Shown: one piece after another, positions 7,920-19,644 of the stretch
Layout: each line of letters begins with the position of its first letter
How positions within the stretch are numbered: position 1 is the first letter of the stretch
Origin: Acutalibacteraceae bacterium
GTDB taxonomy: Bacteria; Bacillota; Clostridia; Oscillospirales; Acutalibacteraceae
Reading direction: 5' to 3'
Length of the DNA: 19,684 nt
Assembly (NCBI GenBank): GCA_045643805.1
Contig: JAZRFT010000006.1
Span: 1-19,684 of the forward strand
The notes under the pieces: model-generated
Databases searched by the model: none
The model's input: the letters and a program-made list of their open reading frames with translations, nothing else
Told to the model about the DNA's origin: nothing
Made by a program: the position numbers and the translations under genes

Positions 7920-8788
7920 ATTGTTTTCTCCTTTATTTCAAACTTCTCAATTATTTCTTCATCAGGGAAATCAAACAGGAACCAACCCTTATTTCCCGCA
8001 AGGTCATAAGCTTTAAAAAGAGTGTTCATTTCCTCTGCCGTTTTAACAAGGCTTTCATTTTTGTATCTGTAAGCGGAGCTTATAAAATGAACGCTGATGT
8101 TATTTTCATCACACTTGCAAGCTTCAAGGAATGGCTTTTCGCATTTGTTCCATTTTCGTGAAGGAGCAAGACCGTATCTGTCCTGAACAACTGCCCTTTG
8201 ATTTTCATTAAGAACAACGGGGTAAATTTTTTCTTTCCTTTTACCGCCCTGGTCCTTCCAACAAGAAAAGTCAAGACCGCAGTCCTTTTCCTTTGCCCAC
8301 CAAGGAAAAACCTTGCACCTACGCATAAGCACCATTTTTCCGCGGCACTCGGAAAGGGTGGGAATTTCATTTTTCAGGTACCACTCATTTTCATTGCCGA
8401 CTATGTACTTTTCATAAAAGGCAGGGAAAAACCATCGGTTCATAATTCCTCTGTCCTGCTTGATGCTCACAATAAGGATTTCGTCAGGATTGGCCTTTAA
8501 AAATTCACGGAAATCGGAAAGCACATCATCAAAGATGAGTTTCTTTTGCTTACCGCTGTCAGTAAAGCAATCGGCAAGGGAGTGGCAAAGGTAAAAATCC
8601 TTACCGCTTTTATAAAGACGTATATCAAAAAGGCGGATACCGAGCTCCAGCTGTTCTTTTACCGTAAGGCTCTGACAACGGCACATATTTTCCATTGTGC
8701 AAAAAGCCGTACAGCTGTCGTGGGTGCCGGGTATATTTACCTCGGAAAGGTAAATTTCATCAGGCAACGCCGAAAAAAATGCCTTCAT
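7916..8788 (-). CDS. PI-PLC X-domain (PLC-like phosphodiesterase) protein, cytoplasmic
   Basis: 290 aa. NIPGTHDS and GIRLFDIRL match the catalytic X-box of bacterial phosphatidylinositol-specific phospholipase C. No signal peptide. ATGA overlap with the GH4 gene. Confidence 0.7.
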   Translation of the reverse strand: MKAFFSALPDEIYLSEVNIPGTHDSCTAFCTMENMCRCQSLTVKEQLELGIRLFDIRLYKSGKDFYLCHSLADCFTDSGKQKKLIFDDVLSDFREFLKANPDEILIVSIKQDRGIMNRWFFPAFYEKYIVGNENEWYLKNEIPTLSECRGKMVLMRRCKVFPWWAKEKDCGLDFSCWKDQGGKRKEKIYPVVLNENQRAVVQDRYGLAPSRKWNKCEKPFLEACKCDENNISVHFISSAYRYKNESLVKTAEEMNTLFKAYDLAGNKGWFLFDFPDEEIIEKFEIKEKTI

Positions 8789-8907
8789 TTAACCGCCTCT
8801 TTTCCTTATTTTTTATTATCTTCAATAATACCCTAAACGAGAAAAAAATTCAACATCAAATTGCTTTTTTCATATAATATAACACAAATAAAAAAGGAGG
8901 CTGTACC

Positions 8908-9231
8908 TTGACCACCCATTCAAGCAATAATTATGATTTTTCACTCGGCAGACTGACTGTAACAAAGGCACAGCTTAACCCACCGTTTTTCATCCCGTCG
9001 GATAATATTTTTGCCGTAATGCTTAAAAACAACGGTGATACTCCCCTATCTTTGCAGAAAATGACCTTTGCCTGCGAGGGTTTTATTGAAGGCTCGGCGG
9101 TTATGTTTGTCAAGAGGGAAAGGATAACGCTTGAGGCTACGGAAACGGATGGTAAAATAACCGTTTACGGAATTTACATACCGCCAAGGGAAAATGTGAT
9201 TGTTTTTTACAGAATGAGGGCGGAGGGATAA
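8908..9231 (+). CDS. Hypothetical protein (TTG start)
   Basis: 107-aa ORF. AAAAGGAGG lies 7 nt upstream of the TTG at 8908 and a strong terminator follows directly. Confidence 0.5.
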   Translation: MTTHSSNNYDFSLGRLTVTKAQLNPPFFIPSDNIFAVMLKNNGDTPLSLQKMTFACEGFIEGSAVMFVKRERITLEATETDGKITVYGIYIPPRENVIVFYRMRAEG

Positions 9232-9259
9232 AAAAGGAACGGCGGCTGCCGTTCCTTTT
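9232..9259 (+). terminator. Rho-independent terminator
   Basis: Stem GGAACGGC (9236-9243) / GCCGTTCC (9248-9255), loop GGCT, then TTTT. Confidence 0.75.
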
Positions 9260-9310
9260 AAGGTTTTGTTAATGCTTTATTTTGGAAAATTAAGCCACAT
9301 CAACCCTGTC

Positions 9311-9339
9311 TTGATTTTTAAAGTGAAATAAAATATAAT
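9311..9339 (+). promoter_or_regulatory. Sigma-A type promoter for the radical SAM gene
   Basis: TTGATT (9311-9316), 17 nt, TATAAT (9334-9339). The ORF-track ATG at 9338 lies inside the -10 box. Confidence 0.6.
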
Positions 9340-9364
9340 GGTAAAAAACGAAAGGAGCCACGGT

Positions 9365-11086
9365 ATGAAAGTCATTATTTCCACCCTTAACTCAAAATAC
9401 ATACACTCATCCCTTGCACCGTGGTGCCTTTTCACCGCCTGCAGGGACTACTGCAAGAAAAATCACAACATAAAAGTAATCGAAGGCACGGTCAACGAAA
9501 AAGCCGATGCGGTGCTTAAAAAAATAACCGACGAAAGCCCCGATGCCGTTGCCTTTTCCGTTTATATATGGAACCGGGTTAAGACACTTGACCTCTGCCG
9601 TGAAATCAAAAAATCAAGTCCCGACACGGTTATAATTCTCGGCGGTCCCGAGGTTGCATATAACCAAAGAGAAATTCTTGAAAAATATAGTTTTGTTGAC
9701 TATGTTCTCTCGGGTGAGGGTGAAATAATTCTCCCGAGACTCCTTGATTTTATATCAAGCGGTCTTTTACCCGAGGACATTGACGGTGTAAGCTACCGCA
9801 AAAACGGTGAGCTTATCATAAAAAACGAGGCTATCGGTGAAAGCTTTGACTACCCCTCCCCCTATTGCAAGGAATATTTTGAAGCCCTCGGCGGCAGAAT
9901 CACTTACATTGAAACAAGCCGTGGATGTCCCTTTAATTGTGCCTACTGCCTTTCGGGACGGTGCGGAAAGGTTAAATTCAAAAGTCTTGAGCAAACAAAA
10001 GAGGAAATTCTCTTACTTGCAAATTCAGGTACAAAAACCGTTAAATTTGTCGACCGTACCTTTAACTGCAACAACTCCCGCGCGGTAGAAATTTTCCGAT
10101 TTATAAACGAAAATTACGGCAAGGCTATCCCCCGTGGAGTGTGCTTCCACTTTGAGATAAGTGCCGATATTTTAAAGGACAGCTTTATTGAGGAGGTCAG
10201 CCGTGCCGTACCCGGTGCCGTTCAGTTTGAAGCAGGTATTCAGTCAATGAACGCTGACACCCTTGAGGCAATCGGCAGAAAGTGTAACATGGACAAGCTT
10301 TGCGAAAACATAAAAAAGCTTGTGGCTATTCGCAGCTGTCATATACATACTGATCTTATTGCAGGTCTGCCCTATGAAACCCTTGAAAGCTTCATTGACG
10401 GCTTCAACAAAAGCTACTCCCTCGGTGCGGATATGCTCCAGCTCGGATTTCTCAAGCTTCTTCACGGCTCACCCTTAAGGGATAATGCCGACACTTTTCC
10501 TTGCGAGTTTTCACCCGAGCCGCCCTATGAAATCCTCTCAACACCCACAATGTCAAAAGCTGACCTTGATATACTCCGCACCGCTGAAAAAGAGGTTGAC
10601 CGACTTCACAACAGCGGACGCTTCCGCCGTACTCTCGAATATATTTTTGATGTATCGAACAAGACTCCCTTTGAGCTTTTCCATTTCCTCGGGAAGCAAT
10701 TTGCCAAAGCTCTACCCGACAACGGTGTTCCCCTTGACCGCTACACCGATGCCCTTTACGCGGTTCTCTCCTCCCTTGAAGGAGTAACCCCCGACGTACT
10801 TCGCGACAAAATGATTTACGACCGCCTTGCAACTAACAATTCGGCAATTATCCCAAAAAGCCTTTGCATTGAGGACCCAAGACTCAAAAAAGTCAAGCAC
10901 CGTCTTGCACTCGATTATCCTATGAAAAAGGGAGTCTGCCGCAGTGTTGCGATACTTTACTCCGAAGGCAGGGTTGTTTTCTGCGATTATGAGGGTGAAA
11001 AATCTGCCCTTGGTGAATATTCTGTAAGAGAGATGAATTTCGACTTTTTCGGTGAAACTTTTTTTGATTTTGATATTGACAAGTGA
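9365..11086 (+). CDS. B12-binding domain radical SAM protein
   Basis: SAM-cluster motif ETSRGCPFNCAYCLSG (CxxxCxxC) follows an N-terminal B12-binding-like Rossmann region (KVIISTLNSKYIH...AFSVYIWN...IILGGPE). AAAGGAG precedes the ATG at 9365 (MKVIIST...), in frame with the 9338 ORF start. Confidence 0.85.
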   Translation: MKVIISTLNSKYIHSSLAPWCLFTACRDYCKKNHNIKVIEGTVNEKADAVLKKITDESPDAVAFSVYIWNRVKTLDLCREIKKSSPDTVIILGGPEVAYNQREILEKYSFVDYVLSGEGEIILPRLLDFISSGLLPEDIDGVSYRKNGELIIKNEAIGESFDYPSPYCKEYFEALGGRITYIETSRGCPFNCAYCLSGRCGKVKFKSLEQTKEEILLLANSGTKTVKFVDRTFNCNNSRAVEIFRFINENYGKAIPRGVCFHFEISADILKDSFIEEVSRAVPGAVQFEAGIQSMNADTLEAIGRKCNMDKLCENIKKLVAIRSCHIHTDLIAGLPYETLESFIDGFNKSYSLGADMLQLGFLKLLHGSPLRDNADTFPCEFSPEPPYEILSTPTMSKADLDILRTAEKEVDRLHNSGRFRRTLEYIFDVSNKTPFELFHFLGKQFAKALPDNGVPLDRYTDALYAVLSSLEGVTPDVLRDKMIYDRLATNNSAIIPKSLCIEDPRLKKVKHRLALDYPMKKGVCRSVAILYSEGRVVFCDYEGEKSALGEYSVREMNFDFFGETFFDFDIDK

Positions 11087-11128
11087 ATTAAAATGAGGTA
11101 TAATCAACGAGCTGTTAAAAAATAGCTT

Positions 11129-11204
11129 GCTGATATAGCTCAGTCGGTAGAGTGCATCCTTGGTAAGGATGAGGTCACCGGTTCAAATCCGGTTATCAGC
11201 TCCA
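11129..11204 (+). tRNA. tRNA-Thr (anticodon GGT)
   Basis: 76-nt cloverleaf. Acceptor GCTGATA/TATCAGC, D arm GCTC-AGTCGGTA-GAGT, anticodon arm CATCC-TTGGTAA-GGATG (anticodon GGT), T arm ACCGG-TTCAAAT-CCGGT, encoded CCA. Confidence 0.9.
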
Positions 11205-11288: not shown

Positions 11289-12242
11289 ATGAAGGGATGC
11301 GGTCATATTATGCGTTCAAAAATTGTATTTCGTGGACAGTCAGAGAAATTATTTTATGAGGTGTTTGAAGACTTCATTATTTCTCAAACTGCAAGGGGTA
11401 TTTCAGATATTACTATCAGAAATTACCGTCAGCATTTACACAGTATATCCAAACATTTGGATATAGAAACACCCTTTGAAGAATTAACCAAAAGACACCT
11501 TGATGAAATGATTTTATCTATGAGGGCAAACGGTCTTGCTCATAACTCAATAGCAACCTATGTTCGGATGCTTCACACCTTCTTTAATTGGTGCAACCGT
11601 GAGGGAATTTCAGACCTCAATATATCAAGTATCAGAGAAAAAGAAACAATCAAAGAAACCTATTCAGACGAAGAACTTGAACGGCTTCTTAAAAGACCGG
11701 GAAAGGAAGCGGAATTCGGTGAGTTCAGGTGTTGGGTTATTGTAAACTTCTTTATGAACTGCGGATGCCGTGCGGCGACTGTCCGCAATATTCAGAACCG
11801 TGATGTTGACCTGAAGGGAAGACAGATAATATTCAGACACAACAAGAACGGCAAAATTCAGGTTGTTCCTCTTTGCAGTAGAATGGTTCTTATTTTAAGT
11901 GATTATATGTCTGTCCGCAAAGGCAAACCTGAAGACTATCTTTTCTGTAATCAATACGGTGAAATGCTGACGGAAAATGCCCTCAGCCTTGCAATTAAAA
12001 GATATAATAAAAAGCGAGGAGTAAAGAAAACAAGTATGCACCTGTTCCGCCACACATTTGCAAGAAAATATTTGGTTGACTGTGGCGGTGATGCCTTTAT
12101 GCTTCAGCGACTTTTGGGGCATAGCACTCTGAATATGACAAAACATTACTGTTCTATTTTTGATGCGGACATTTCAAAGAACTATGACCGTGTTTCACCC
12201 TTGGAACAGTTAACAAAACCAAAAGAGACCATTAAACGCTGA
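11289..12242 (+). CDS. Tyrosine-type site-specific integrase
   Basis: C-terminal catalytic motifs MHLFRHTFARKYL and LLGHSTLNMTKHY (R..HxxR..H..Y), and an N-terminal SAM-like core-binding domain. The ORF is open from 11241. Candidate ATG starts are 11289 and 11310; neither has a strong SD. Confidence 0.85.
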   Translation: MKGCGHIMRSKIVFRGQSEKLFYEVFEDFIISQTARGISDITIRNYRQHLHSISKHLDIETPFEELTKRHLDEMILSMRANGLAHNSIATYVRMLHTFFNWCNREGISDLNISSIREKETIKETYSDEELERLLKRPGKEAEFGEFRCWVIVNFFMNCGCRAATVRNIQNRDVDLKGRQIIFRHNKNGKIQVVPLCSRMVLILSDYMSVRKGKPEDYLFCNQYGEMLTENALSLAIKRYNKKRGVKKTSMHLFRHTFARKYLVDCGGDAFMLQRLLGHSTLNMTKHYCSIFDADISKNYDRVSPLEQLTKPKETIKR

Positions 12243-12281: not shown

Positions 12282-12309
12282 AGGGCGAAGGAATTTTAAC
12301 CTTCGCCCT
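12282..12309. terminator. Bidirectional hairpin between convergent integrase and WYL genes
   Basis: 10-bp stem AGGGCGAAGG (12282-12291) / CCTTCGCCCT (12300-12309). The 3' arm overlaps the end of the WYL ORF. Confidence 0.6.
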
Positions 12310-13318
12310 CATCTTTATACATATCTGAAACTTTTTCAATAAATTTTTTCATTTCCTCAACAACCGGCTGAGGGCTTAATATCTTTGCACCTCTTCCAAA
12401 AGTAGAAATCCACGCATAGAACGGCGGACTTGTTTCAATCAGAGCTGTAAATGTAAAGTGCTTGTCTCCGTCAGGTATCATAATTATATCTTTGCCGAAT
12501 TGGTCTATAACGGCATCCGCAAAACGGTTGATGAAACGCATTTTTACATTATGCTTGTCTCCGTGATACATCTGAAACACCTTTGCTTCTCTGTTAGTCA
12601 GGTGTTCAGCTTTAAATAGTTCCGCACCCTCACGGTCTTCAGGAATTGGACTTGTTATCCGTTCCATGCGGTCAACTCTGAAACTGTGGAAGCCCTCTTT
12701 TTCTGAAAGGTAAGCATAAAGATAATAATTGCCATTATCCCAATGGAACGCAAAGGGGCTGACTATATATAACTCACCCTTCTTTGAATATTGCTTGGGT
12801 TTCTGCTTGTTGGGGGTATAATGAAAATACCTGAACCCTATTTTCATATTCAGAGAAATTGCAAGATGTATCTTGTCAACATCCTTTACAACACTGTCAT
12901 TTTTACTGCGGACACGGTTTGACACATAAGCGGTTCTGTTCAGACTGTCCTTTGTGTAAACATCTGCAAAATCTTTGATTTTTGCCGTAATTGACCGTGC
13001 TTCCTCTTGGGTAATAAACTTTGATGACTGAATACTGTCAACAATCAAACGCAGTTCGTATGGCTCAAATTTGGGCTTTGTTATATAATACCCTCTTTGT
13101 TTTGCACTGTATTCAATCGGTTCGCCGAAGTCAACCTGAAGCCTGAATATATCGTTATATATCGTTTTCGGTGATGCTTCAATTCCTTTTGAAGCTAAAT
13201 ATTCGCAAATCTTATTTGCATTTTTTGCGTGGTCTTTGTTTGTGTTCGCCCTCAAATAGTCTCTGATGTAAAGAAGCTTTACGCCTTGACCTGAAGACCT
13301 ACCTTGACCGACTGCCAT
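12296..13318 (-). CDS. HTH-WYL-WCX transcriptional regulator (BrxR/CapW-like architecture)
   Basis: 340 aa. N-terminal winged HTH (ICEYLASKGIEASPKTIYNDIFRL), central WYL-type SH3 barrel (IGFRYFHY...LYIVSPFAFHWDNGNYYLYAY...FRVDRM), C-terminal extension. GGAAGGTGA lies upstream of the ATG. Confidence 0.8.
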   Translation of the reverse strand: MAVGQGRSSGQGVKLLYIRDYLRANTNKDHAKNANKICEYLASKGIEASPKTIYNDIFRLQVDFGEPIEYSAKQRGYYITKPKFEPYELRLIVDSIQSSKFITQEEARSITAKIKDFADVYTKDSLNRTAYVSNRVRSKNDSVVKDVDKIHLAISLNMKIGFRYFHYTPNKQKPKQYSKKGELYIVSPFAFHWDNGNYYLYAYLSEKEGFHSFRVDRMERITSPIPEDREGAELFKAEHLTNREAKVFQMYHGDKHNVKMRFINRFADAVIDQFGKDIIMIPDGDKHFTFTALIETSPPFYAWISTFGRGAKILSPQPVVEEMKKFIEKVSDMYKDEGEG

Positions 13319-13400: not shown

Positions 13401-13433
13401 CAATAAAAAAGAGATATCAGTTATGATACCTCT
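13401..13433 (-). terminator. Rho-independent terminator after the methyltransferase gene
   Basis: On the minus strand, stem AGAGGTATC / GATATCTCT (one mismatch) with the MTase stop codon in the loop, followed by TTTTTTATT. Confidence 0.55.
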
Positions 13434-14155
13434 TTTTCTAATCTTTTTTCAGTTGCTCTCATATAAGTTTCGTCTATCTCGATTCCTATATATTTTCTAT
13501 TGTTTCTTAATGCTGCTATACCTGTGCTGCCTACCCCATTAAAACAATCAAGAACCACATCATTTTCATTGGAAGCAATTTTGATTATTTTTTCAAGTAT
13601 AGACACGGGCTTTTGTGTTGGGTGTAAATTTTTTCCACTTTCATCTTTCACTCGTTCAGAACCCATGCAAATACCTGATTCTATAAAATTGTGCATATCT
13701 TTTTGATTTGTAAAATTCCAAGTGTGTCCTTTATTCCAACAACTAACAATGAGTTCGCAACTATTTAAAAATGATGATTTTCTAAAGTTCGGAACAGGAT
13801 TTGTTTTATGCCATACCATAAATTGAAATGTGTCAAATTCAGGGTCGAACACTTTATGATATTCACCAATAATATTGTAAGAACAAAATATAAATATGTT
13901 TCCGTTTGGTTTTAAAATCCTCTTGAACTCACCTATAAGGTCTTGAGGTTTTAACTCTGTCAAATCCCATTCTGCTAAATCATTATTGATTTCACTTCGC
14001 CAATCAAATTTCATATTGCCTGTGCTATATTGAGCAATATTATATGGGGGGTCAGTCAATATTAAATCTATTGAATTGTCGGGGATATTTTTTAAGGCAG
14101 AAAAACAATCATCGTTAATCAACAAGTATTTTTCTATGCTCTGAATATCTATCAT
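13421..14155 (-). CDS. Type II DNA methyltransferase, beta-class N6-adenine/N4-cytosine (DPPY)
   Basis: 244 aa. Catalytic motif IV LILTDPPYNIAQ near the N-terminus and SAM-binding motif I VLDCFNGVGSTGIAA near the C-terminus (beta permutation). The start overlaps the upstream ORF stop as ATGA. Confidence 0.85.
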   Translation of the reverse strand: MIDIQSIEKYLLINDDCFSALKNIPDNSIDLILTDPPYNIAQYSTGNMKFDWRSEINNDLAEWDLTELKPQDLIGEFKRILKPNGNIFIFCSYNIIGEYHKVFDPEFDTFQFMVWHKTNPVPNFRKSSFLNSCELIVSCWNKGHTWNFTNQKDMHNFIESGICMGSERVKDESGKNLHPTQKPVSILEKIIKIASNENDVVLDCFNGVGSTGIAALRNNRKYIGIEIDETYMRATEKRLEKEVS

Positions 14156-14976
14156 CTAAAATACATTCCTTTTATCTTTGTTAATGCAGTTCTTATTTTG
14201 TCTGCGGATTTTTTATACTGATTGAATACAATTTCAAAACCTTTTTCATCATTACAAACAAAGTTCCAATATTCTTTACCAATCAACAATTCATCTTCTG
14301 CAAAAAATTGTTTTACTCTTTCTTGTTTCCAAGTCTTGCCCTCACCAAACTTGTTATAAGCAGTTCCGAAAAAGATTTTTATTTTTGCAGTCGCATCATC
14401 TTTTAATTGATTTTTTAACAAAAAGTATTCTTCAAGTAATGCTGTTTTTTCCGCACGAGCTTTCTTATTATCTAAATCTCCTGATGCTTTTAACTCAATT
14501 AAATAATGTTCATTCTTCTCTTTGCAGTAAAAATAATTGTCAGTTATATGAGTTCTTTTATAACTTGTTATATCTCTTGGATATATAGATGAGTATGTAG
14601 AATAATGGTTTATATCAGGGGTTGTTATGTGGTCTACATAACTATCTAATATTGATGATATTCTTGAAATTTGGTCAGGCAATATAAATGAATTAATATC
14701 ACCTTTTACTTCATAGGATAATTTTGCGATATTATTACCCATTTTTTCAAGAACATTACCAAAAGAAGAGTCAAAAGAACGGACAAAGGCGGAGTAAAAC
14801 ATAAATTCTTCGCCAAGTTCTGCAATAAAGCAGTTATTCTTTTTCATATTGATAACACCATTAACATCATCAACTTCATCAGAATATCTGCTTATTAAGC
14901 CCTCGGCGAATGCTTCTATTGCGGTATCAACTACTATCTCTATTGCCTTTTGCTTCTGCATATCCATATTCAACAT
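14152..14976 (-). CDS. Putative type II restriction endonuclease partner of the methyltransferase
   Basis: 274-aa ORF translationally coupled (ATGA) to the MTase. It has a possible PD-(D/E)xK-like core (HITDNYF...HYLIELKASGDLD). Family assignment is not secure from sequence alone. Confidence 0.5.
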   Translation of the reverse strand: MLNMDMQKQKAIEIVVDTAIEAFAEGLISRYSDEVDDVNGVINMKKNNCFIAELGEEFMFYSAFVRSFDSSFGNVLEKMGNNIAKLSYEVKGDINSFILPDQISRISSILDSYVDHITTPDINHYSTYSSIYPRDITSYKRTHITDNYFYCKEKNEHYLIELKASGDLDNKKARAEKTALLEEYFLLKNQLKDDATAKIKIFFGTAYNKFGEGKTWKQERVKQFFAEDELLIGKEYWNFVCNDEKGFEIVFNQYKKSADKIRTALTKIKGMYFR

Positions 14977-15104: not shown

Positions 15105-15692
15105 TTATTTTTCCAAAAGCCCCACATATTTATAAATCGTGGTTCTACTCAAACCGCACACCCTTGCAAATTCTGAAATGTTCAGATTGCCTGATTTATA
15201 AGACGGATAATGCCTGTAAAACATCTGCGGAATTTGGTCTGTGGTTGTATGAGGGCGACCTATTTTTACACCCTTGCTTTTGGCATTTGCCATTCCTGAA
15301 CGCACTCTTTCTCTGATAATGCGAAGTTCAAGTTCTGCAAACACACCTGACATCTGAATGAACGCATTTGTCATGGGGTCAATCTGACCGTTTGTGCAGT
15401 CAACCGTAATACTGCCAACAATAACAAGCTTAAGCTTCTTTTCTCTTACGGTTTCAATTATCTCACAAAGTTGTTTTGTGCTTCGTGCAAGTCTTGAAAC
15501 TTCAAGGGTGTATATTGTGTCGCCCTCATGAGCCTGTTCCAAAAGTGAAGAAAGTTCTTGTTTTATGGCACTGTCGCCGTGTTCGTATTCGAGGTATATC
15601 TGTTCTGCACCTGCGGTCTTCAGCTCTCTGACCTGACGGTCAATGTCCTGTTTGCTTTCATTCGTGCTACATCTTGCATATCCGTAATACAT
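15105..15692 (-). CDS. Small serine recombinase (resolvase/invertase family) with C-terminal HTH
   Basis: 195 aa. N-terminal YGYARCSTNESKQDIDRQ (catalytic Ser9), SRLARS, FAELELRIIRERVRSG, and C-terminal HTH ISEFARVCGLSRTTIYKYV. Confidence 0.85.
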   Translation of the reverse strand: MYYGYARCSTNESKQDIDRQVRELKTAGAEQIYLEYEHGDSAIKQELSSLLEQAHEGDTIYTLEVSRLARSTKQLCEIIETVREKKLKLVIVGSITVDCTNGQIDPMTNAFIQMSGVFAELELRIIRERVRSGMANAKSKGVKIGRPHTTTDQIPQMFYRHYPSYKSGNLNISEFARVCGLSRTTIYKYVGLLEK

Positions 15693-15706
15693 AATTTATC
15701 TTCCTT

Positions 15707-15973
15707 TCAATCAATAAAAGTATCATAAGTGAATTTAGCACCGAGCCTGAACCCTGATATAAAACTATCACAAATACTGATGCTTGAAAATTCATTGTAA
15801 GCATCTGTGTATTTGACGAACAATTCTTTTTCGGCTTCAGGAAGCTTTGCAGTCAACTCTTCCTCTTTCTTTACAAGTTCGCCGAGCTTCCTTTTAAGCT
15901 TCGGTGTAATTTTAGTGTTAAGTTCTTGCGGTTCTATATTGCCGTAATAAAAGGCTTCAATAAAATCTGACAT
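15707..15973 (-). CDS. Hypothetical small protein
   Basis: The ORF is open from 15997, but codons 1-8 lie inside an intergenic hairpin. The ATG at 15973 (MSDFIEAFYYGN...) has AAAGGA upstream. It sits in an operon with the recombinase. Confidence 0.55.
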   Translation of the reverse strand: MSDFIEAFYYGNIEPQELNTKITPKLKRKLGELVKKEEELTAKLPEAEKELFVKYTDAYNEFSSISICDSFISGFRLGAKFTYDTFID

Positions 15974-15988
15974 AATTGTATCCTTTCT

Positions 15989-16012
15989 CTGCCCCACTTT
16001 TGCGTGGGGCAG
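15989..16012 (-). other. Intercistronic hairpin
   Basis: 8-bp stem CTGCCCCA / TGGGGCAG with an 8-nt loop. No T-run, so this is more likely an RNA processing/stability element than a full terminator. Confidence 0.4.
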
Positions 16013-16023
16013 TTCCTGTTTTA

Positions 16024-16299
16024 TCAGCAGATTGTGAAACGGCGACTGCTGACCTGTTTTGTAAACTCCTGATACATTTCACCGTGAGACTTTTTAAAAG
16101 CCGTTGTATCAAATCTGTTTGACAGAACTGATGTCCAACGAACTATGTAAGCTCCGGCTTCAAGCTCTTCTGTGTTCTGCTGAAGCATCTCTGCTTTGAT
16201 ACTGTCTCTGAGGGCTTCGGCTTCTGCCTTGGCTTCTTCGATGATTGCTTCCCATTCTGTGAGGGCTTCAATTTTGCTGATGATTTCTTTTGTTGACAT
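16024..16299 (-). CDS. Hypothetical coiled-coil protein
   Basis: 91-aa ORF, first gene of the leftward operon. Helical acidic N-terminus (EAIIEEAKAEAEALRDSIKAEM). No recognisable catalytic motif. Confidence 0.55.
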   Translation of the reverse strand: MSTKEIISKIEALTEWEAIIEEAKAEAEALRDSIKAEMLQQNTEELEAGAYIVRWTSVLSNRFDTTAFKKSHGEMYQEFTKQVSSRRFTIC

Positions 16300-16347: not shown

Positions 16348-16454
16348 ATTATAGCACTAATATTTAGTGTTGTCCATTGACATATTGCACTAACTTTCAG
16401 TGTTATATTTGTGCAAATTTAGCACTTGTTTTTAGTGCATAGTTATGATAGAAT
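16348..16454. promoter_or_regulatory. Divergent promoter region with three 6-3-6 palindromic operators
   Basis: O1 CACTAA-TAT-TTAGTG (16355-16369, perfect), O2 CACTAA-CTT-TCAGTG (16388-16402), O3 GCACTTG-TTT-TTAGTGC (16422-16438). Centres are 33 and 35 bp apart. Leftward promoter TGGACA (16376-16371), 17 nt, TATAAT (16353-16348), with O1 filling the spacer. Rightward promoter TTGTTT (16426-16431), 17 nt, TGaTAGAAT (-10 hexamer at 16449-16454), overlapping O3. Confidence 0.65.
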
Positions 16455-16482
16455 GTTTACAATAGGAAAGGTGGCGAAAAAA

Positions 16483-16707
16483 ATGGCGATACAATACAAG
16501 ATTGATATTATGGCAGAACTGAAAAGCAAAGGTTATTCTTCAACAAAAATCCGTGAAGAAAAACTTATCGGTCAGTCATACCTTCAGCAAATCAGACACG
16601 GCGAATTGGTCTCTTGGAAAACCATTGACACAATCTGCTCTCTCTTGGACTGTCAGGTAGGCGACTTGGTTGAATATGTAAAAGAACCAACTGTTCAAGA
16701 AAGGTAA
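16483..16707 (+). CDS. XRE/Cro-type helix-turn-helix regulator
   Basis: AGGAAAGGTGG precedes the ATG at 16483 (MAIQYKID...), in frame with the 16426 ORF-track start. 74 aa with the C-terminal block TIDTICSLLDCQVGDLVEYV typical of short Cro/CI-like HTH proteins. Confidence 0.7.
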   Translation: MAIQYKIDIMAELKSKGYSSTKIREEKLIGQSYLQQIRHGELVSWKTIDTICSLLDCQVGDLVEYVKEPTVQER

Positions 16708-16749: not shown

Positions 16750-16979
16750 TACACCTCTTTTTTACCCACCTGAAAGTGTCTGCGGAATGTAATGCTTTTG
16801 CGACACCTACCCCGGGGGTGTATTCCGGGAAAGTTCAGGATTGATTGCGGACTTGCGGTTTTGGGTGGCTCACTCTCCGTCTGAATGATGTTTTTAATCT
16901 GAATGACGGTTTTGTTGACCGCAAAGGATACAATGAAAATACTCCGTCAGACGAACCAAAAGGAACATAACGAAAAAAT
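16750..16979. other. Structured non-coding region (candidate ori/oriT or ncRNA)
   Basis: About 230 nt with no credible ORF. Direct repeats CTCCGTC(T/A)GA (16874-16883, 16942-16951) and TCTGAATGA (16879-16887, 16899-16907). Complementary segments CCGTC/GACGG. Hairpins GTGTC...GACAC (16777-16807) and ACACC..GGTGT around the CCCCGGGG palindrome (16803-16821). Confidence 0.4.
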
Positions 16980-17014
16980 ACGGCAGACCGTGAGTTTTTA
17001 TCTTGGTCTGCCGT
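16980..17014 (-). terminator. Rho-independent terminator ending the amber-containing operon
   Basis: 10-bp perfect stem ACGGCAGACC (16980-16989) / GGTCTGCCGT (17005-17014), followed on the minus strand by ATTTTTT. Confidence 0.75.
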
Positions 17015-17019
17015 TTATC

Positions 17020-17154
17020 TTATTTCCAATCTTTGAAGATTTCATCAAGTGCCATATCAAGTGCGGTCTTCATGCTTTTCTGAAGGAATGAAAACAATTC
17101 TGCTTCAATCACACTTTTCTTCTTTTTCTTCTTGTTATCTCTTTGGTTTGCCAT
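17020..17154 (-). CDS. Small basic protein, 44 aa (below the ORF-track cutoff)
   Basis: MANQRDNKKKKKKSVIEAELFSFLQKSMKTALDMALDEIFKDWK. The ATG at 17154 overlaps the upstream stop as TAATG, GGTGA lies upstream, TAA is at 17020-17022 and a terminator follows 6 nt later. Confidence 0.45.
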   Translation of the reverse strand: MANQRDNKKKKKKSVIEAELFSFLQKSMKTALDMALDEIFKDWK

Positions 17155-17354
17155 TAATTTTTCACCTTGCTTTCAAAGGTGAATTTTATCTCCGTGGGGG
17201 TATCATCAAAATACCCTATGCGTTCAAGGAACTTCTATCTCTGCTCCTCAAGGTTCTGTTCCGGGCTTTGTCCGTTTACCTGATACCAATACCAATCAGG
17301 AACCATGCCACGGTTTCTCCAAAACTATAACATTTGCAATTCTTCCTTATTCAT
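17154..17354 (-). CDS. 66-codon ORF containing two in-frame TAG codons (hypothetical; intact only with amber readthrough)
   Basis: MNKEELQML*FWRNRGMVPDWYWYQVNGQSPEQNLEEQR*KFLERIGYFDDTPTEIKFTFESKVKN, with TAG at 17325-17327 and 17235-17237. GAAGGAG lies 7 nt upstream of the ATG at 17354. There is no TAA/TGA until the terminal TAA (17154-17156). Confidence 0.45.
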
Positions 17355-17374
17355 AAAATTTCTCCTTCCATAAT

Positions 17375-17785
17375 CTAATCAAGGGATATATTCAATGCTC
17401 CCTTGTTGTTTGTATTCTTCCGCCAATTTTCCTCTGTCGGTATCTGACAATTCAATGAGGGCATAAACAAGCGGATATAATAACCTTCTCTTTCTCCAAT
17501 TTCTTCCTCAATTTCTTCTTTTGTCTGACTTTTGGCAGAATACAAAACATTGAATTTCACATTATATCTTCTTCTCTTGGCTTCCGCAAGAACCTTGTAT
17601 TTGTTCTCTTTTGGATTTGACATTGAAACCCAATGTTCTGCCATGCGGTAAAGCATATTCGTGCTTTTACCTACATAAACGATTTTGTTGTTTATGCTTA
17701 TTGAGTAAATCCCTGCGGTCAGGAACTTCTGACTCCAACTTTGCTATAAATATTTATTGTAGATGTTATCAACATATCTTCCCAT
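17375..17785 (-). CDS. GIY-YIG nuclease with an in-frame TAG at codon 14 (pseudogene under the standard code)
   Basis: GGAG lies 7 nt upstream of the ATG at 17785. The frame reads MGRYVDNIYNKYL*QSWSQKFLTAGIYSISINNKIVYVGKSTNMLYRMAEHW..., with TAG at 17744-17746. The GIY...YVG...R..H and E...N blocks are present. The ORF-track start at 17656 would delete the GIY motif. The nominal stop is TAG 17375-17377; readthrough adds 7 codons to a TGA at 17351-17353. Confidence 0.6.
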
Positions 17786-17803
17786 GTTTTTTCTCCTTTA
17801 CTC

Positions 17804-18358
17804 TTAAAATTTAAAGTTGCCGTTTTCATCCGTGAAATCATCCTTCACTCTTGGATTATTCGACTTTATAGTATTTAGATTTTTATTATTAGAATTTATA
17901 TTATTGCTTATATTATTATGCGTATTATCATTATCCCCTAAAGGGGTATTATCAGAATCTGAAGGGGTATTTTCAATGTCAGATGAAGGGGTATTATCAA
18001 TGTCCGCCGCAGTTTTGTAGATTGCATCATAATCAACAATGATTTCGCCCGTCTGACCGTTTTTGCTTGGCTTATGGATTATCCAACCTTTTTCAACCAA
18101 TGATTTTCTTGCACTCTTATATGTAGTTTCAGACATTCCGCAACGGCTCATAACTGTTGCTTCAGGAACGGCAAAACTACCATTATCAGCATTACCGGTC
18201 AGGAACAATATCAATTTCAACTATGCTCCTTCTTTTCCGGTCAGACCGTTGAAAATTATTGCTTCAAGGTCATTGGTTCTGATTGCCATGCCCCACTTTT
18301 TGTCCCTGTTCTTTTCGCCTTTAGATTTCAGTAAAGGTGCCTGATTGAAATTCCCCAT
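17804..18358 (-). CDS. Winged-helix replication-initiator-like protein (phage O / HTH_36-like N-domain) with an in-frame TAG at codon 46
   Basis: The ATG at 18358 is preceded by GGAGGG. The frame reads MGNFNQAPLLKSKGEKNRDKKWGMAIRTNDLEAIIFNGLTGKEGA*LKLILFLTGNADNGSFAVPEATVMSRCGMSETTYKSARKSLVEKGWII..., with TAG at 18221-18223. The C-terminus is a low-complexity Asn/Asp tail with DNTP repeats. The ORF track begins at the TTG immediately after the TAG. Confidence 0.6.
17940..18004 (-). repeat. Degenerate tandem repeats inside the initiator-like gene (encode (D/E)NTP units)
   Basis: GAAGGGGTATTTTCAATGTC (17961-17980) and GAAGGGGTATTATCAATGTC (17985-18004) match at 19/20 positions. A partial third copy AAGGGGTATTATCA lies at 17941-17954. 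Confidence 0.6.
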
Positions 18359-18383
18359 TTCCGCAAACCCTCCAACTTTTAAT

Positions 18384-18509
18384 CTATTCACAGGCGAACC
18401 TGATAAACTGACTTGTATTCATATTGAATTTTTTTGCCGTCTCTTGGATTGCTTCTTTTTCACAATCCGTCAGGCGAAGGTCTAATTTTTTATTGCGTTT
18501 TTTATTCAC
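18384..18509 (-). CDS. Ribbon-helix-helix (MobC/CopG-like) protein, 41 aa to a TAG (below the ORF-track cutoff)
   Basis: AAGGAG lies 7 nt upstream of the GTG at 18509. MNKKRNKKLDLRLTDCEKEAIQETAKKFNMNTSQFIRFACE has a beta-strand/helix/helix pattern typical of RHH accessory proteins. It ends at TAG 18384-18386; readthrough would add 20 codons to a TAA at 18321-18323. Confidence 0.5.
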   Translation of the reverse strand: MNKKRNKKLDLRLTDCEKEAIQETAKKFNMNTSQFIRFACE

Positions 18510-18578
18510 TTCTTTTCTCCTTATTACTTGAAAATTTTTATAAATGAAGTATCAGTTTTTGTCCTGACTTCTATATAA

Positions 18579-18607
18579 ATTATAACAAAATTTTTTAATA
18601 AAATCAA
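18579..18607 (-). promoter_or_regulatory. Strong sigma-A type promoter of the RHH/initiator/GIY-YIG operon
   Basis: On the minus strand TTGATT (18607-18602), 17 nt, extended -10 TGTTATAAT (-10 hexamer at 18584-18579). The -35 box overlaps the 16-bp repeat copy B. Confidence 0.6.
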
Positions 18608-18620
18608 AATGAGGGCGGTT
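18605..18620 (+). repeat. Copy B of the 16-bp exact direct repeat CAAAATGAGGGCGGTT
   Basis: Identical to 16734-16749. Lies between the upstream terminator and the -35 box of the operon promoter. Confidence 0.8.
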
Positions 18621-18625
18621 CATCC

Positions 18626-18664
18626 AAAACAAAAACACCACTGAATTTGTTAAAATCAGCGGTG
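18626..18664 (-). terminator. Rho-independent terminator after the 158-aa paralog gene
   Basis: On the minus strand, stem CACCGCTGA / TCAGTGGTG (one mismatch, 18636-18664), followed by TTTTTGTTTT. Confidence 0.65.
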
Positions 18665-18699
18665 ATCTTGCGTTATTCAATTTCATGGGTTTGTTCCTT

Positions 18700-19176
18700 T
18701 CAGGCAACATCATCAAGCTCGGTGTTTTCTGCTTCCTTATCCGCAAATTCTTTTGCATTCAGCACTTCAGGTTCATTGTGAAAATAAAACAAAGGGTTCT
18801 TTCTGAACTCCGGGAACTGTGCAACAAACCACTTGCGAACAAGAGCATATTTGTTGGTCTGAATTACACCGGCATAGTATTTGAGAAAATTGTATTCTGC
18901 CATATATTCATCAGCACGGGAAAGTGAAGACATGAACTTTTCCATTCTTTCAAACTTCAGATTTTTGAACTGATTGCACTTGAAAGTTTCATTGTTCTGA
19001 TTGGTATATTTTTTCGGTCTCTTGTGCGTTCTTCTCAAAACCACAATACCGGGAACTTCATCAATGACCTTTTTATAAAACTTGTATTCCTCTGAAGAAA
19101 AATCCTGCATCTTATCTTCAAAATCCTTTGTGATTGTAAGTGTCTTCTTGATAAAATCAATCTTAAACTTTTCCAT
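18700..19176 (-). CDS. Hypothetical protein, paralog 2 of a tandem pair
   Basis: The ORF is open from a GTG at 19188, but AAGGTGGA lies 8 nt upstream of the ATG at 19176 (MEKFKIDFIKK...), which matches the N-terminus of the neighbouring paralog. Shares the VRKWF block. Confidence 0.6.
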   Translation of the reverse strand: MEKFKIDFIKKTLTITKDFEDKMQDFSSEEYKFYKKVIDEVPGIVVLRRTHKRPKKYTNQNNETFKCNQFKNLKFERMEKFMSSLSRADEYMAEYNFLKYYAGVIQTNKYALVRKWFVAQFPEFRKNPLFYFHNEPEVLNAKEFADKEAENTELDDVA

Positions 19177-19197
19177 TGTTATATCCACCTTTCTTTA

Positions 19198-19644
19198 TTA
19201 TGCACCCTCTTTTTGTGAAACTGCACTGACTTTTACTTTTACTGATTTTCTTGCTTCAGCAATGTTTCTGATAGTTCTTGACTCTCGGATTATCTTCTTT
19301 TCCTTCTTAACATTAAAGGTTTCACCGTCTACCTTATAAGTATCAAGGAACCACTTTCTGACTGTGGGGAACTTATTGTTCTTGTCGATTGCTTCAAATT
19401 CAGGCATACGGTCAGGATCATTAAGTGTGATATACTCTCTGATGAATGAACGGTTTAAACCTTCATAAGTTGTCTTCTTTTTCTCTGCTTCTGTAATCTT
19501 AAGTTCGAAGCCTGCGTTTTCTGACATGAGGGTTGTTAACTCTGCGAGTTCCTTTTCATAGCCTCTGCCGGCACGGTTGAAGGCTCTTTCTGAACCTCTG
19601 ATTTCCTTGTTGATAAAGTCCACTGTAAAGAATTTTGTTTTCAT
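19198..19644 (-). CDS. Hypothetical protein, paralog 1 of a tandem pair
   Basis: 148-aa ORF (MKTKFFTVDFINK...TVRKWFLDTY...) with AAAGGA upstream. No recognisable domain. Confidence 0.6.
   Translation of the reverse strand: MKTKFFTVDFINKEIRGSERAFNRAGRGYEKELAELTTLMSENAGFELKITEAEKKKTTYEGLNRSFIREYITLNDPDRMPEFEAIDKNNKFPTVRKWFLDTYKVDGETFNVKKEKKIIRESRTIRNIAEARKSVKVKVSAVSQKEGA

What the first reader, a model, noticed from the sequence alone, without database searches (positions are those of the whole stretch)
17154..18509. Six in-frame amber (TAG) codons confined to one five-gene operon: candidate stop-codon recoding or suppression-gated module
I read the minus strand codon by codon across one promoter-to-terminator unit (promoter 18579-18607, terminator 16980-17014). 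It holds five ORFs with good Shine-Dalgarno sites and coupled junctions, but they are coherent only if TAG is decoded.

The TAG positions are:
- 18384-18386, codon 42 of the RHH gene
- 18221-18223, codon 46 of the initiator-like gene, inside its winged-helix domain
- 17744-17746, codon 14 of the GIY-YIG gene, upstream of the GIY motif
- 17375-17377, the nominal end of GIY-YIG; seven codons later a TGA forms a classic ATGA overlap with the next start codon
- 17325-17327 and 17235-17237, codons 10 and 40 of a 66-codon ORF whose TAA overlaps the next ATG as TAATG

No in-frame TAA or TGA and no frameshift interrupts any of these frames. Random decay in AT-rich DNA should give mixed lesions. None of the other 24 CDS I call in this window ends in TAG.

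TAG reassignment with phage-encoded suppressor tRNAs (genetic code 15) is established for some gut phages. Here it would affect a replication/mobilisation module of a tRNA-integrated element whose other genes and host use standard stops. That would suggest amber suppression acting as a switch that keeps the module silent until a suppressor is made. The alternative is a set of nonsense-inactivated pseudogenes.
Basis: partly seen in the sequence, partly recalled or inferred. Interest (0 to 1): 0.88.

Follow-up and report, generated by a model that had tools for sequence, protein, structure and literature searches.

The report
Amber-recoded replication operon in mobile element
A small mobile element integrated next to a tRNA gene in a gut Clostridia genome writes its five-gene replication operon with TAG "stop" codons used as glutamine codons. 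All its other genes and the host use the normal code, so the operon can be translated only when something else in the cell suppresses TAG.

Summary
The six in-frame TAGs are real, and they are not decay.

- **Family-wide pattern.** In about 20 related 8-10 kb elements from different gut Oscillospirales MAGs, the same operon (RHH, winged-helix replication initiator, GIY-YIG nuclease, two small ORFs) carries 84-91 in-frame TAGs in about 7,500 codons. It carries no in-frame TAA or TGA.
- **Other element genes.** Integrase, WYL, resolvase, p148/p162, p91 and HTH_26 have 1 TAG in about 9,600-13,600 codons. None of them ends in TAG.
- **Selection.** Sequence downstream of the TAGs is under purifying selection (dN/dS 0.1-0.35).
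- **TAG reads as Gln.** Gln is enriched 11.7-fold at TAG columns. Gln plus TAG makes up 3.9% of codons inside the operon, the same as Gln alone in the other genes.
- **One TAG is itself conserved.** The TAG at initiator codon 46 is kept in 16 of 18 distinct sequences, while ordinary Gln columns mix CAA and CAG freely.
- **No suppressor in cis.** No CUA tRNA or other RNA gene was found in a complete relative element (L001). Decoding must come in trans, and the source is unresolved.
- **Related phages.** Temperate phages of 23-26 kb with a related initiator show the same pattern: TAGs in early genes only, and no suppressor tRNA in the parts held.

Verdict: a code-15-type, suppression-gated module and a new variant of known phage recoding.

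The parts
18579..18607 (-). Promoter-like site of the recoded operon (TTGATT, 17 nt, TG-extended TATAAT)
   Evidence: Conserved in L001 and L002.
18321..18509 (-). RHH / NikA-like gene of 62 codons with an in-frame TAG at codon 42 (18384-18386). Its 3' end overlaps the start of the next gene.
   Evidence: Pfam NikA-like E=1.2e-7. Relatives have CAA/CAG (Gln), ATG or TAG at this position, and the frame stays open to the same end. Further TAGs occur at codons 23, 24 and 34 in relatives.
17804..18358 (-). Winged-helix (HTH_36) replication-initiator-like gene of 184 codons with an in-frame TAG at codon 46 (18221-18223)
   Evidence: Pfam HTH_36. PHROG replication initiation / DnaD-like loader families, E 1e-12 to 7e-9. 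The TAG is conserved in 16 of 18 distinct relatives and is CAG in the other two. dN/dS downstream of the TAG is 0.12-0.35.
17351..17785 (-). GIY-YIG nuclease gene of 144 codons with in-frame TAGs at codon 14 (17744-17746) and codon 137 (17375-17377). It ends at a TGA inside an ATGA overlap.
   Evidence: Pfam GIY-YIG E=4.7e-7. L002 has GAG at site 14 and GAT at site 137 and reads through to the same TGA. dN/dS is 0.10-0.23.
17154..17354 (-). 66-codon ORF (o66) with in-frame TAGs at codons 10 (17325-17327) and 40 (17235-17237)
   Evidence: Codon 40 is CAA (Gln) in the 92.6%-identical L001. Codon 10 is GAG in L002. Relatives carry TAGs at other columns (15, 33, 38, 53).
17020..17154 (-). 44-codon ORF (o44), the last gene of the operon. 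It has no TAG in this copy.
   Evidence: Relatives L008, L012 and L014 have in-frame TAGs here.
16980..17014 (-). Intrinsic terminator hairpin of the operon
   Evidence: Read from the sequence. Conserved in L001 and L002.
18700..19176 (-). p162 (158 aa from the ATG), standard-code gene of unknown function directly upstream of the operon
   Evidence: No in-frame TAG in 11 relatives. Family of more than 1,100 proteins, no Pfam match and no PDB fold match.
19198..19644 (-). p148, a distant paralogue of p162 in standard code
16426..16707 (+). Cro/C1-type HTH_26 regulator on the opposite strand to the flanking genes, in standard code (the true start is probably the ATG near 16483)
   Evidence: Pfam HTH_26 E=1.6e-10. 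No TAG in 12 relatives.
15105..16299 (-). Three standard-code genes: p91 (16024-16299), DUF6809 (15707-15997) and a serine recombinase/resolvase (15105-15692)
13421..14976 (-). Cargo: type II restriction-modification pair (TdeIII-type REase 14152-14976, N6_N4 methylase 13421-14155)
   Evidence: This slot holds different genes in relatives.
12296..13318 (-). WYL/WCX-domain regulator in standard code
11310..12242 (+). Tyrosine integrase in standard code
11129..11204 (+). Host tRNA-Thr(GGT), the integration site. Its 3' 45 nt or more are repeated at the far end of the element in L001.

Best explanation
The window holds most of an integrative mobile element inserted at tRNA-Thr(GGT). It is about 9 kb here and 8.2 kb in the closest complete relative. 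The host is a gut Oscillospirales bacterium that uses the standard code.

The element's five-gene replication operon is written in a code-15-type dialect in which UAG is a Gln codon. The operon runs RHH regulator, winged-helix initiator, GIY-YIG nuclease, o66, o44. About 31% of its Gln positions are TAG.

Every other gene of the element uses only standard codons and never terminates with TAG. These are the integrase, WYL and HTH_26 regulators, resolvase, p148/p162, p91 and the cargo.

The element encodes no suppressor tRNA. The operon is therefore translated full-length only when UAG decoding is supplied in trans. Otherwise each gene stops after 10-46 codons.

The TAGs thus act as a translational gate on replication. 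Maintenance and integration genes work in the resting cell, while the initiator and nuclease are made only in a UAG-suppressing state.

**Status of each step**
- Shown: TAG is a selected sense codon, confined to this operon, and equivalent to Gln.
- Inferred: the gating function.
- Unresolved: the source of suppression. My rough weighting is a co-resident or infecting TAG-recoding phage about 0.4, a conditional host activity about 0.35, and an unknown element-encoded or phage-encoded factor acting on RF1 or tRNA-Gln about 0.2.
For: **1. TAG only, in every relative.** The operon has 84 in-frame TAGs and 0 in-frame TAA/TGA in 7,244 codons across 13-18 loci. The other element genes have 1 TAG in 13,649 codons. 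With two more loci added the counts are 91 versus 1.

**2. Purifying selection after the TAGs.** Downstream of the first TAG, dN/dS is 0.12-0.35 for the initiator and 0.10-0.23 for GIY-YIG, while dS is 0.6-1.8.

**3. TAG equals Gln.**
- Gln is 32% of sense residues at 24 TAG columns against a 2.8% background. That is an 11.7-fold enrichment, and no other residue exceeds 1.8-fold.
- Gln plus TAG is 3.9% of operon codons, matching 3.9% Gln in the other genes.
- Window site 6 is CAA in the 92.6%-identical L001.

**4. Selection for TAG itself.** Initiator column 49 is TAG in 16 sequences and CAG in 2. Other conserved Gln columns mix CAA and CAG freely.

**5. Efficient decoding is implied.** Tandem TAG-TAG pairs occur in relatives.

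**6. TAG is never a terminator in recoded elements.** 0 of 77 ORFs of at least 120 aa lying within the element spans end in TAG. A standard-code relative, L051, ends three genes with TAG.

**7. No suppressor in cis.** ARAGORN and Rfam (E up to 1) find no tRNA other than the att tRNA-Thr in the window or in the complete element of L001.

**8. Precedent.** TAG-to-Gln recoded Topaz prophages occur in Oscillospiraceae at tRNA-Thr, with standard-code integrases. Only 35-40% of recoded phages carry a suppressor tRNA (bioRxiv 10.1101/2021.08.26.457843).

**9. Related phages.** Phages of 23-26 kb whose initiator is 48% identical also carry TAGs only in early genes.
Against: - No suppressor tRNA, Pyl machinery or other decoding factor was found, so translation of the TAGs is inferred from evolution and not observed.
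- The related complete phages L026-L032 also lack a CUA tRNA in the parts held, yet must replicate on their own. That argues against a strictly helper-supplied suppressor and leaves the mechanism open.
- Host flanks have few TAG stops (3 of 74). This could mean the host itself tolerates or performs UAG read-through, which would weaken the 'off by default' part of the gate.
- One relative (L053) has a TAG inside its integrase, and one has a TAG in DUF6809. The partition is therefore not absolute.
- The 'full-length homologues with Q' in the protein database are code-15 gene calls of TAG and give no independent evidence.
Confidence: 0.72

Rival explanations
1. Host-level decoding, attenuator rather than gate. 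These Oscillospirales lineages read UAG at appreciable levels all the time, through a chromosomal tRNA(CUA) or through weak or absent RF1 with near-cognate tRNA-Gln(CUG). TAG in the operon then only lowers the output of dosage-sensitive proteins (initiator, nucleases).
For: - Host ORFs next to recoded elements end in TAG only 3 of 74 times, against 41 of 239 in other Firmicutes loci (Fisher p=0.0036).
- Related complete phages carry TAGs in early genes without any suppressor tRNA in the parts held.
- The TAG-bearing genes include nucleases (GIY-YIG, HNH).
Against: - The split of 91 TAGs versus 1 between operon and other element genes, with identical Gln budgets, is hard to explain if UAG is always readable.
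- Up to 3 TAGs per gene (6-8 across the operon), including tandem TAG-TAG, would give negligible product unless suppression is efficient.
- Host genes show no internal TAGs, and three of them do appear to stop at TAG.
- The host sample is small (74 ORFs).
Confidence: 0.15
2. Nonsense-inactivated pseudogenes. The operon is dead in this copy and the TAGs are decay.
For: Under table 11 the genes are fragmented, and no suppressor is present in the element.
Against: - 84-91 in-frame TAGs and not one in-frame TAA, TGA or frameshift in about 20 relatives.
- dN/dS of 0.1-0.35 downstream of the TAGs.
- The TAG at initiator codon 46 is conserved across lineages whose dS is about 0.6-1.2.
- Start codons, SD sites and overlapping junctions are conserved.
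Confidence: 0.02
3. The TAGs are true stops, and the short N-terminal peptides plus re-initiated C-terminal fragments are the functional products (split genes).
For: In the window a TTG follows the TAG of the initiator. Table-11 callers annotate products of 134-138 aa in NCBI MAGs.
Against: - The codon after the TAG is ATA, CTG or CTC in relatives, and no SD precedes it.
- TAG positions move among lineages and fall inside conserved domains: the HTH_36 helix, upstream of the GIY motif, and 7 codons before the GIY-YIG end.
- Gln is strongly enriched at TAG columns.
Confidence: 0.04
4. UAG encodes pyrrolysine or another residue (Trp, Tyr, Lys) rather than Gln.
For: Lys is the majority residue at 5 of 24 TAG columns, mostly in Lys-rich tracts. 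Pyl decoding is known in some anaerobic Firmicutes (from general knowledge, not tested here).
Against: - Lys enrichment is only 1.4-fold, against 11.7-fold for Gln. Tyr is 0.2-fold and Trp is absent.
- The Gln budget matches exactly when TAG is counted as Gln.
- No pyl genes or tRNA(CUA) occur in any locus. Whole genomes could not be scanned.
Confidence: 0.03
5. Sequencing or assembly artefact, for example a modified base read as T.
For: None specific.
Against: The same pattern appears in independent assemblies from goat, water deer, human and other samples and from different pipelines (NCBI MAGs, ENA, Logan, JGI). The positions are lineage-specific.
Confidence: 0.01

Closest known systems
TAG-to-Gln (code 15) recoded temperate phages of gut bacteria, especially 'Topaz' and 'Garnet' prophages (Borges et al., bioRxiv 10.1101/2021.08.26.457843)
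   Same: - In-frame TAG read as Gln inside a standard-code host.
- Integrase kept free of TAG.
- Topaz infects Oscillospiraceae and integrates at tRNA-Thr.
- Many such phages also lack a suppressor tRNA.
- Recoding was proposed there to separate lysogeny functions from lytic functions.
   Different: - This is an 8-10 kb element with no capsid, tail, terminase or lysis genes.
- Recoding is confined to a replication operon, whereas in those phages it is concentrated in structural and lysis genes.
- None of its operon proteins matched GenBank phages. The initiator and p162 profiles found no phage relative in IMG/VR (p162 matched only one further element-like contig); the other operon proteins were not scanned there.
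crAss-like and Lak phages using code 15 with phage-encoded tRNA-Sup(CUA) (PMC9523058; PMC7886860)
   Same: UAG decoded as Gln. Early genes are in standard code and a recoded gene block depends on a change in decoding.
   Different: Those are large lytic phages of Bacteroidota. They mostly carry their own suppressor tRNA, and the recoded block is late genes.
Phage satellites (PICI, P4-like, PICMI)
   Same: - Small size and tRNA-site integration by a tyrosine integrase.
- Own regulators and replication module.
- A variable cargo slot that sometimes holds defence genes (RM, Mrr, and AbiJ in the standard-code relative L051).
- Dependence on a trans-acting factor for activation.
   Different: - No helper has been identified.
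- No packaging or capsid-redirection genes are recognisable.
- Activation through the genetic code has not been described for any satellite. My literature searches found nothing.
The 23-26 kb temperate phages found here (L026-L032)
   Same: - Initiator 48% identical.
- Integrase next to a tRNA-Thr.
- TAGs in the RHH-like, initiator, nuclease (HNH) and small-ORF early genes.
- No CUA tRNA in the parts held.
   Different: They are complete phages with terminase, portal and tail genes, all in standard code. They have an HNH nuclease instead of GIY-YIG, and no p148/p162, WYL or resolvase genes.
Laboratory amber-mutant phages grown on suppressor hosts
   Same: The logic is the same: essential genes carrying UAG are expressed only where a suppressor is active.
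   Different: Here the arrangement is natural, spans several genes and is evolutionarily maintained.

Membership tests
Code-15-type (TAG to Gln) recoded mobile genome | Conserved genes interrupted by in-frame TAG only, never by TAA or TGA | tested here: met
   84 TAG and 0 TAA/TGA in 7,244 operon codons across relatives. The window copy has six TAGs.
Code-15-type (TAG to Gln) recoded mobile genome | TAG positions correspond to Gln in homologues | tested here: met
   Gln is enriched 11.7-fold at 24 TAG columns.
Code-15-type (TAG to Gln) recoded mobile genome | Interrupted genes remain under purifying selection | tested here: met
   dN/dS of 0.10-0.35 downstream of the first TAG in the initiator and GIY-YIG genes.
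Code-15-type (TAG to Gln) recoded mobile genome | TAG avoided as a terminator | tested here: met
   0 of 77 ORFs of at least 120 aa within the element spans end in TAG. All operon genes end in TAA or TGA.
Code-15-type (TAG to Gln) recoded mobile genome | Own suppressor tRNA with a CUA anticodon (present in only 35-40% of described recoded phages) | tested here: not met
   ARAGORN and Rfam on the window, the complete element in L001 and the other loci scanned find only the att tRNAs.
Code-15-type (TAG to Gln) recoded mobile genome | UAG actually translated as Gln (peptide evidence) | not testable with these tools
   This needs proteomics or reporter assays.
Recoded prophage (Topaz/Garnet type) | Phage structural and lysis genes, themselves recoded | tested here: not met
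   No capsid, tail, terminase or lysin in the 8.2 kb complete element. No relatives in GenBank phages; the initiator and p162 profiles found none in IMG/VR phage contigs.
Recoded prophage (Topaz/Garnet type) | Integrase free of in-frame TAG | tested here: met
   0 TAG in 2,406 integrase codons of 8 loci. The exception is the more distant L053.
Phage satellite (PICI / P4-like / PICMI) | Integrase plus own replication module in a small island | tested here: met
Phage satellite (PICI / P4-like / PICMI) | Genes that hijack helper packaging (small terminase, capsid-size redirection, cos/pac) | tested here: inconclusive
   No Pfam or PHROG match of that kind. p148, p162, o66 and o44 have no assignable function.
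Phage satellite (PICI / P4-like / PICMI) | Induction and transfer by a helper phage | not testable with these tools
   No helper was identified.
Integrative mobilizable element | Relaxase and oriT | tested here: not met
   Only a NikA-like RHH is present. No relaxase domain occurs in any element protein.
Pyrrolysine decoding | pylTSBCD genes and tRNA-Pyl(CUA) | tested here: inconclusive
   None in the window or in any locus. Whole host genomes could not be scanned. The residue statistics favour Gln over Lys-like residues.
Pseudogenised operon | Mixed lesions and relaxed selection | tested here: not met

The most novel reading that the evidence does not exclude
The element uses the cell's genetic-code state as its induction signal. 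It sits silent in a standard-code host. It translates its replication initiator and nuclease only when a TAG-suppressing (code-15) phage, or a stress-induced host suppressor, makes UAG readable. That would make it a 'code-sensing' satellite that hitch-hikes on recoded phages. The related 23-26 kb phages, which also carry TAGs only in early genes, may work the same way.
Probability: 0.3. Interest if true: 0.9.

Novelty: new variant of a known kind. Interest (0 to 1): 0.68.

Why it matters
Stop-codon recoding in bacteria has so far been described for phages. There it is thought to delay late and lysis genes until the phage's own suppressor tRNA appears.

This case differs in three ways:
- The same TAG-to-Gln dialect occurs in a small element without any virion genes.
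- It is restricted to a replication operon.
- The element has no suppressor of its own. A related small phage family shows the same reversed pattern, with early genes recoded and late genes standard, and no suppressor in the parts held.

Several consequences follow.
- One mobile element's activity can depend on a decoding state created by something else in the cell. That is a new kind of dependency between mobile elements, or between element and host.
- It sharpens an open question: how is UAG decoded in the majority of recoded phages that lack suppressor tRNAs?
- In practice, table-11 annotation fragments these genes in NCBI MAGs. Code-15 gene callers silently write Q for TAG, which can mislead homology-based reasoning.

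Tried and rejected
- **Known plasmids and phages.** DNA similarity of the operon to PLSDB plasmids and GenBank phages gave no match. tblastn of the initiator and GIY-YIG against GenBank phages gave none.
- **IMG/VR, initiator profile.** No relative found.
- **IMG/VR, integrase.** One unrelated, non-recoded phage fragment of 52% GC, L019.
- **IMG/VR, att core of the window's tRNA-Thr.** One temperate phage, L020, with the identical 47-nt core and its own integrase. It has no in-frame TAGs in the 11.6 kb held. The att core of the L004-type tRNA-Thr gave no hit.
- **Hidden suppressor.** ARAGORN on most fetched loci and permissive Rfam scans of the element and the related phages found nothing. The 96-nt 'tRNA-Lys' that ARAGORN calls in L004 is the partial tRNA-Thr att repeat.
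- **'Homologues have Q at codon 46'.** I first took this from database proteins. I rejected it as circular once the DNA showed TAG there, because those gene calls used code 15.
- **Read-through context.** No conserved downstream motif exists at 68 distinct TAG contexts. The only regularity is that C never precedes TAG.
- **Function of p162.** A family of more than 1,100 hypothetical proteins. The AlphaFold model has pLDDT 81 and no PDB fold match with E below 1. A suspected link to an 89-aa phage protein was not supported by hhalign.
- **Circular episomal contigs.** None of 10 contigs checked has terminal repeats.
- **Literature.** I found no report of recoded satellites or integrative elements, and none of UAG reassignment in Oscillospirales.
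- **Identity of the window's genome.** The exact-protein look-up was not on record.
Full report
**1. Observation**

Reading the minus strand of 16900-18700 and translating the claimed frames confirms five tightly packed genes. Each has a GGAGG-type ribosome-binding site.
- RHH/NikA-like gene, 18509-18321.
- Winged-helix HTH_36 protein, 18358-17804.
- GIY-YIG nuclease, 17785-17351.
- A 66-codon ORF (o66), 17354-17154.
- A 44-codon ORF (o44), 17154-17020.

No TAA, TGA or frameshift interrupts any frame.

The promoter-like site at 18607-18579 was recovered by the scan. The terminator hairpin at 17014-16980 is evident in the sequence and conserved in relatives.

All 24 other long ORFs of the window end in TAA or TGA.

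Pfam and PHROG assignments are as follows:
- NikA-like RHH.
- HTH_36, matching phage replication-initiation and DnaD-like loader families.
- GIY-YIG endonuclease.

**2. Setting**

tRNA-Thr(GGT) lies at 11129-11204. It is followed by these genes:
- a tyrosine integrase;
- a WYL/WCX regulator;
- a type II restriction-modification pair;
- a serine recombinase;
- DUF6809 and p91;
- a Cro/C1-type HTH_26 gene on the opposite strand;
- the five-gene operon;
- two paralogous genes of unknown function, p162 and p148.

The window is a whole 19,684-bp NCBI contig, so the far end of the element is cut off.

The closest relative, L001, is 92.6% identical over the operon. It shows the complete element. Repeats of 45 nt or more of the tRNA-Thr 3' end at L001:8078 and L001:16171 bound an 8.2-kb island with the same gene order.

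**3. Relatives**

Relatives came from the protein search, one scan of GTDB representative genomes, one metagenome scan and exact-protein look-ups. Together they gave about 20 related elements. They come from Clostridia, Acutalibacteraceae, Ca. Fimenecus and Oscillospiraceae MAGs of goat, water deer, human and other guts.

A frame-aware comparison gave these counts.

| Genes | Codons | In-frame TAG | In-frame TAA/TGA |
|---|---|---|---|
| Five operon genes | 7,244 | 84 | 0 |
| Integrase, WYL, resolvase, p91, DUF6809, HTH_26, p148, p162 | 13,649 | 1 | only at ends of low-identity alignments that run past the real stop |

The TAG at initiator codon 46 is present in nearly all relatives. Other TAGs occupy lineage-specific positions:
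- RHH codons 23, 24, 34 and 42/45.
- Initiator codons 102 and 103.
- GIY-YIG codons 14, 15, 22, 87, 108, 117 and 137.
- o66 codons 10, 15, 33, 38, 40 and 53.
- o44 codons 13, 17 and 38.

Tandem TAG-TAG pairs occur.

**4. Not pseudogenes**

Downstream of the first TAG, pairwise dN/dS is 0.12-0.35 for the initiator and 0.10-0.23 for GIY-YIG, at dS of 0.6-1.8. This is similar to the uninterrupted resolvase and p91 genes.

In L002 the window's TAG at GIY-YIG codon 137 is GAT, and the frame runs to the same TGA in the ATGA overlap. The seven codons after the 'nominal end' are therefore coding.

**5. Which amino acid**

I first relied on database homologues that show Q at initiator codon 46. That evidence is circular. 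The DNA of those contigs has TAG there, so the gene calls were made with code 15.

Using only my own DNA-based alignments, with TAG written as X, three results point to Gln.
- Gln accounts for 32% of sense residues at 24 TAG columns against a 2.8% background, an 11.7-fold enrichment. The next best residue is 1.8-fold. Tyr is depleted and Trp absent.
- The operon has 114 CAA, 93 CAG and 91 TAG, so 3.9% of its codons are Gln plus TAG. The other element genes have 3.9% Gln and one TAG.
- Window site 6 is CAA in L001.

UAG is best read as Gln, as in genetic code 15.

**6. Evidence for function of the TAGs themselves**

At conserved Gln columns, CAA and CAG are freely mixed among lineages. Initiator column 49 is instead TAG in 16 of 18 distinct sequences, CAG in 2 and never CAA.

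In nearly every relative, each of the first four genes keeps at least one TAG even though the positions turn over.

TAG is never a terminator in the recoded elements: 0 of 77 ORFs of at least 120 aa within the element spans end in it. A more distant standard-code relative, L051, ends three genes with TAG and has no in-frame TAG in its o66 and o44 homologues.

Selection therefore maintains a sharp partition. Maintenance genes must work when UAG is a stop. The replication operon works only when UAG is read.

**7. Source of decoding**

ARAGORN and Rfam, including permissive scans, find no tRNA other than the att tRNA in the following:
- the window;
- the complete L001 element;
- any other element locus scanned.

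No conserved read-through context surrounds the TAGs. Decoding must be supplied in trans. Two leads emerged.

*Lead a: recoded phages in the same kind of host.* The literature describes TAG-recoded 'Topaz' prophages of 22 +/- 3 kb in Oscillospiraceae. They integrate at tRNA-Thr and have standard-code integrases. Only 35-40% of recoded phages carry suppressor tRNAs. The authors speculate that recoding could let a phage sense co-infecting phages (bioRxiv 10.1101/2021.08.26.457843).

*Lead b: phages related to the element.* The initiator has a 48%-identical homologue in 23-26 kb temperate phages, L026-L032. These phages carry Terminase_3, an SPP1-type portal, and an integrase beside tRNA-Thr(CGT).
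- They have in-frame TAGs in their early genes only (RHH-like, initiator, HNH, small ORFs).
- They have none in their structural genes.
- They have no CUA tRNA in the parts held.

This pattern is the reverse of the published 'late genes recoded' model. A complete phage cannot easily rely on a helper, so this lead argues for a host-derived or still unknown decoding mechanism.

*Host stop usage.* Host ORFs flanking recoded elements end in TAG only 3 of 74 times, against 41 of 239 in other Firmicutes loci fetched here (Fisher p=0.0036). This fits either explanation. Host genes themselves contain no internal TAGs.

I could not scan whole host genomes for tRNA(CUA) or prfA.

**8. What the element is**

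It has no virion, terminase or lysis genes and no relaxase. None of its operon proteins matched GenBank phages or PLSDB plasmids, and the initiator and p162 profiles found no phage relative in IMG/VR.

Its architecture resembles phage satellites:
- integrase;
- regulators;
- a phage-type replication module;
- a variable cargo slot that holds RM, Mrr or unknown genes, and AbiJ in the standard-code relative L051.

No helper-exploitation gene can be recognised.

p162 belongs to a family of more than 1,100 hypothetical proteins. Its model is confident, but it has no match to solved structures.

**9. Verdict**

The recoding interpretation is strongly supported, and decay is rejected.

The module is a code-15-type, trans-dependent and probably gated replication operon in a satellite-like integrative element.

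It is a new variant of a known phenomenon for three reasons:
- a new kind of carrier;
- a new target module;
- no suppressor in cis.

The decisive unknown is who reads the UAG.

Noticed in passing
L026 1-20060, L029, L030, L031, L032 (IMG/VR and ENA contigs of 23-26 kb): A family of small temperate phages (Terminase_3, SPP1-type portal, integrase beside a complete tRNA-Thr(CGT)). They carry in-frame TAGs only in the early/replication genes between integrase and terminase. They have none in structural genes and no CUA tRNA in the parts held. This is the reverse of the published late-gene recoding pattern.
   Followed up: partly
Host flanks of L001-L013 and window 1-11100: Host ORFs next to recoded elements almost never end in TAG: 3 of 74, against 17% in other Firmicutes loci fetched here (Fisher p=0.0036). 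This suggests genome-wide TAG-stop depletion in these Oscillospirales lineages.
   Followed up: partly
Protein database entries P0001-P0021, P0045; loci L021-L028: Logan and ENA gene calls for this family were made with code 15, so TAG appears as Q in the stored proteins. NCBI MAG annotations use table 11 and give fragments of 41, 45, 115 and 137 aa. Homology evidence from such proteins is circular for deciding what TAG encodes.
   Followed up: yes
L053 7958-8893 (GCA_052844255.1): In a more distant relative, the integrase is split by a TAG at the conserved Gln of the RNIQNRDVDL motif. This is either recoding spreading into the integrase or a fresh CAG-to-TAG knockout.
   Followed up: no
L051 10548-16711: A related element has a different Rep-like protein and o66/o44 homologues without TAG. 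It uses TAG as the ordinary stop of three genes, so it is a standard-code relative that brackets the origin of recoding.
   Followed up: partly
window 13421-14976; L009 13234-14547; L051 11924-12823: The slot between resolvase and the WYL gene holds different cargo in each element. The window has a TdeIII-type REase plus N6_N4 methylase, L009 has an Mrr-type nuclease, L051 has AbiJ, and others have SHOCT-domain or unknown proteins.
   Followed up: partly
L003 and L010 (both from MAG CALAQQ01, SRR6425821_bin.72): Two different members of the element family occur in one genome bin. The second is next to tRNA-Pro(GGG).
   Followed up: no
window 18700-19644; family A2: p148 and p162 are paralogues of a very large gut-metagenome family (more than 1,100 proteins) with invariant CNQF and WFxAQFP motifs. 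The AlphaFold model is confident (pLDDT 81), but there is no Pfam match and no PDB fold match.
   Followed up: partly
window 1499-1838 (-): Bacterial RNase P RNA class A (280 bits). The ORF at 1457-1708 (+) that overlaps it is spurious.
   Followed up: yes
L020 10053-10099 and 10323-11525 (IMGVR_UViG_3300045988_156157): A phage contig carries a 47-nt sequence identical to the 3' end of the window's tRNA-Thr next to its own 400-aa integrase. It is either a competitor for the same attachment site or a candidate co-resident phage. No in-frame TAGs occur in the 11.6 kb held.
   Followed up: partly
L004 8520-8730: The leader upstream of the p148 homologue contains repeated GGTAGCGAC...CGCTGAA motifs after a promoter-like sequence. 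It may be a regulatory RNA or an operator array.
   Followed up: no
L040 8791-8868 (IMGVR_UViG_2700989470_000002): An unrelated Firmicutes phage locus encodes a tRNA with a UUA anticodon, which looks like an ochre suppressor.
   Followed up: no
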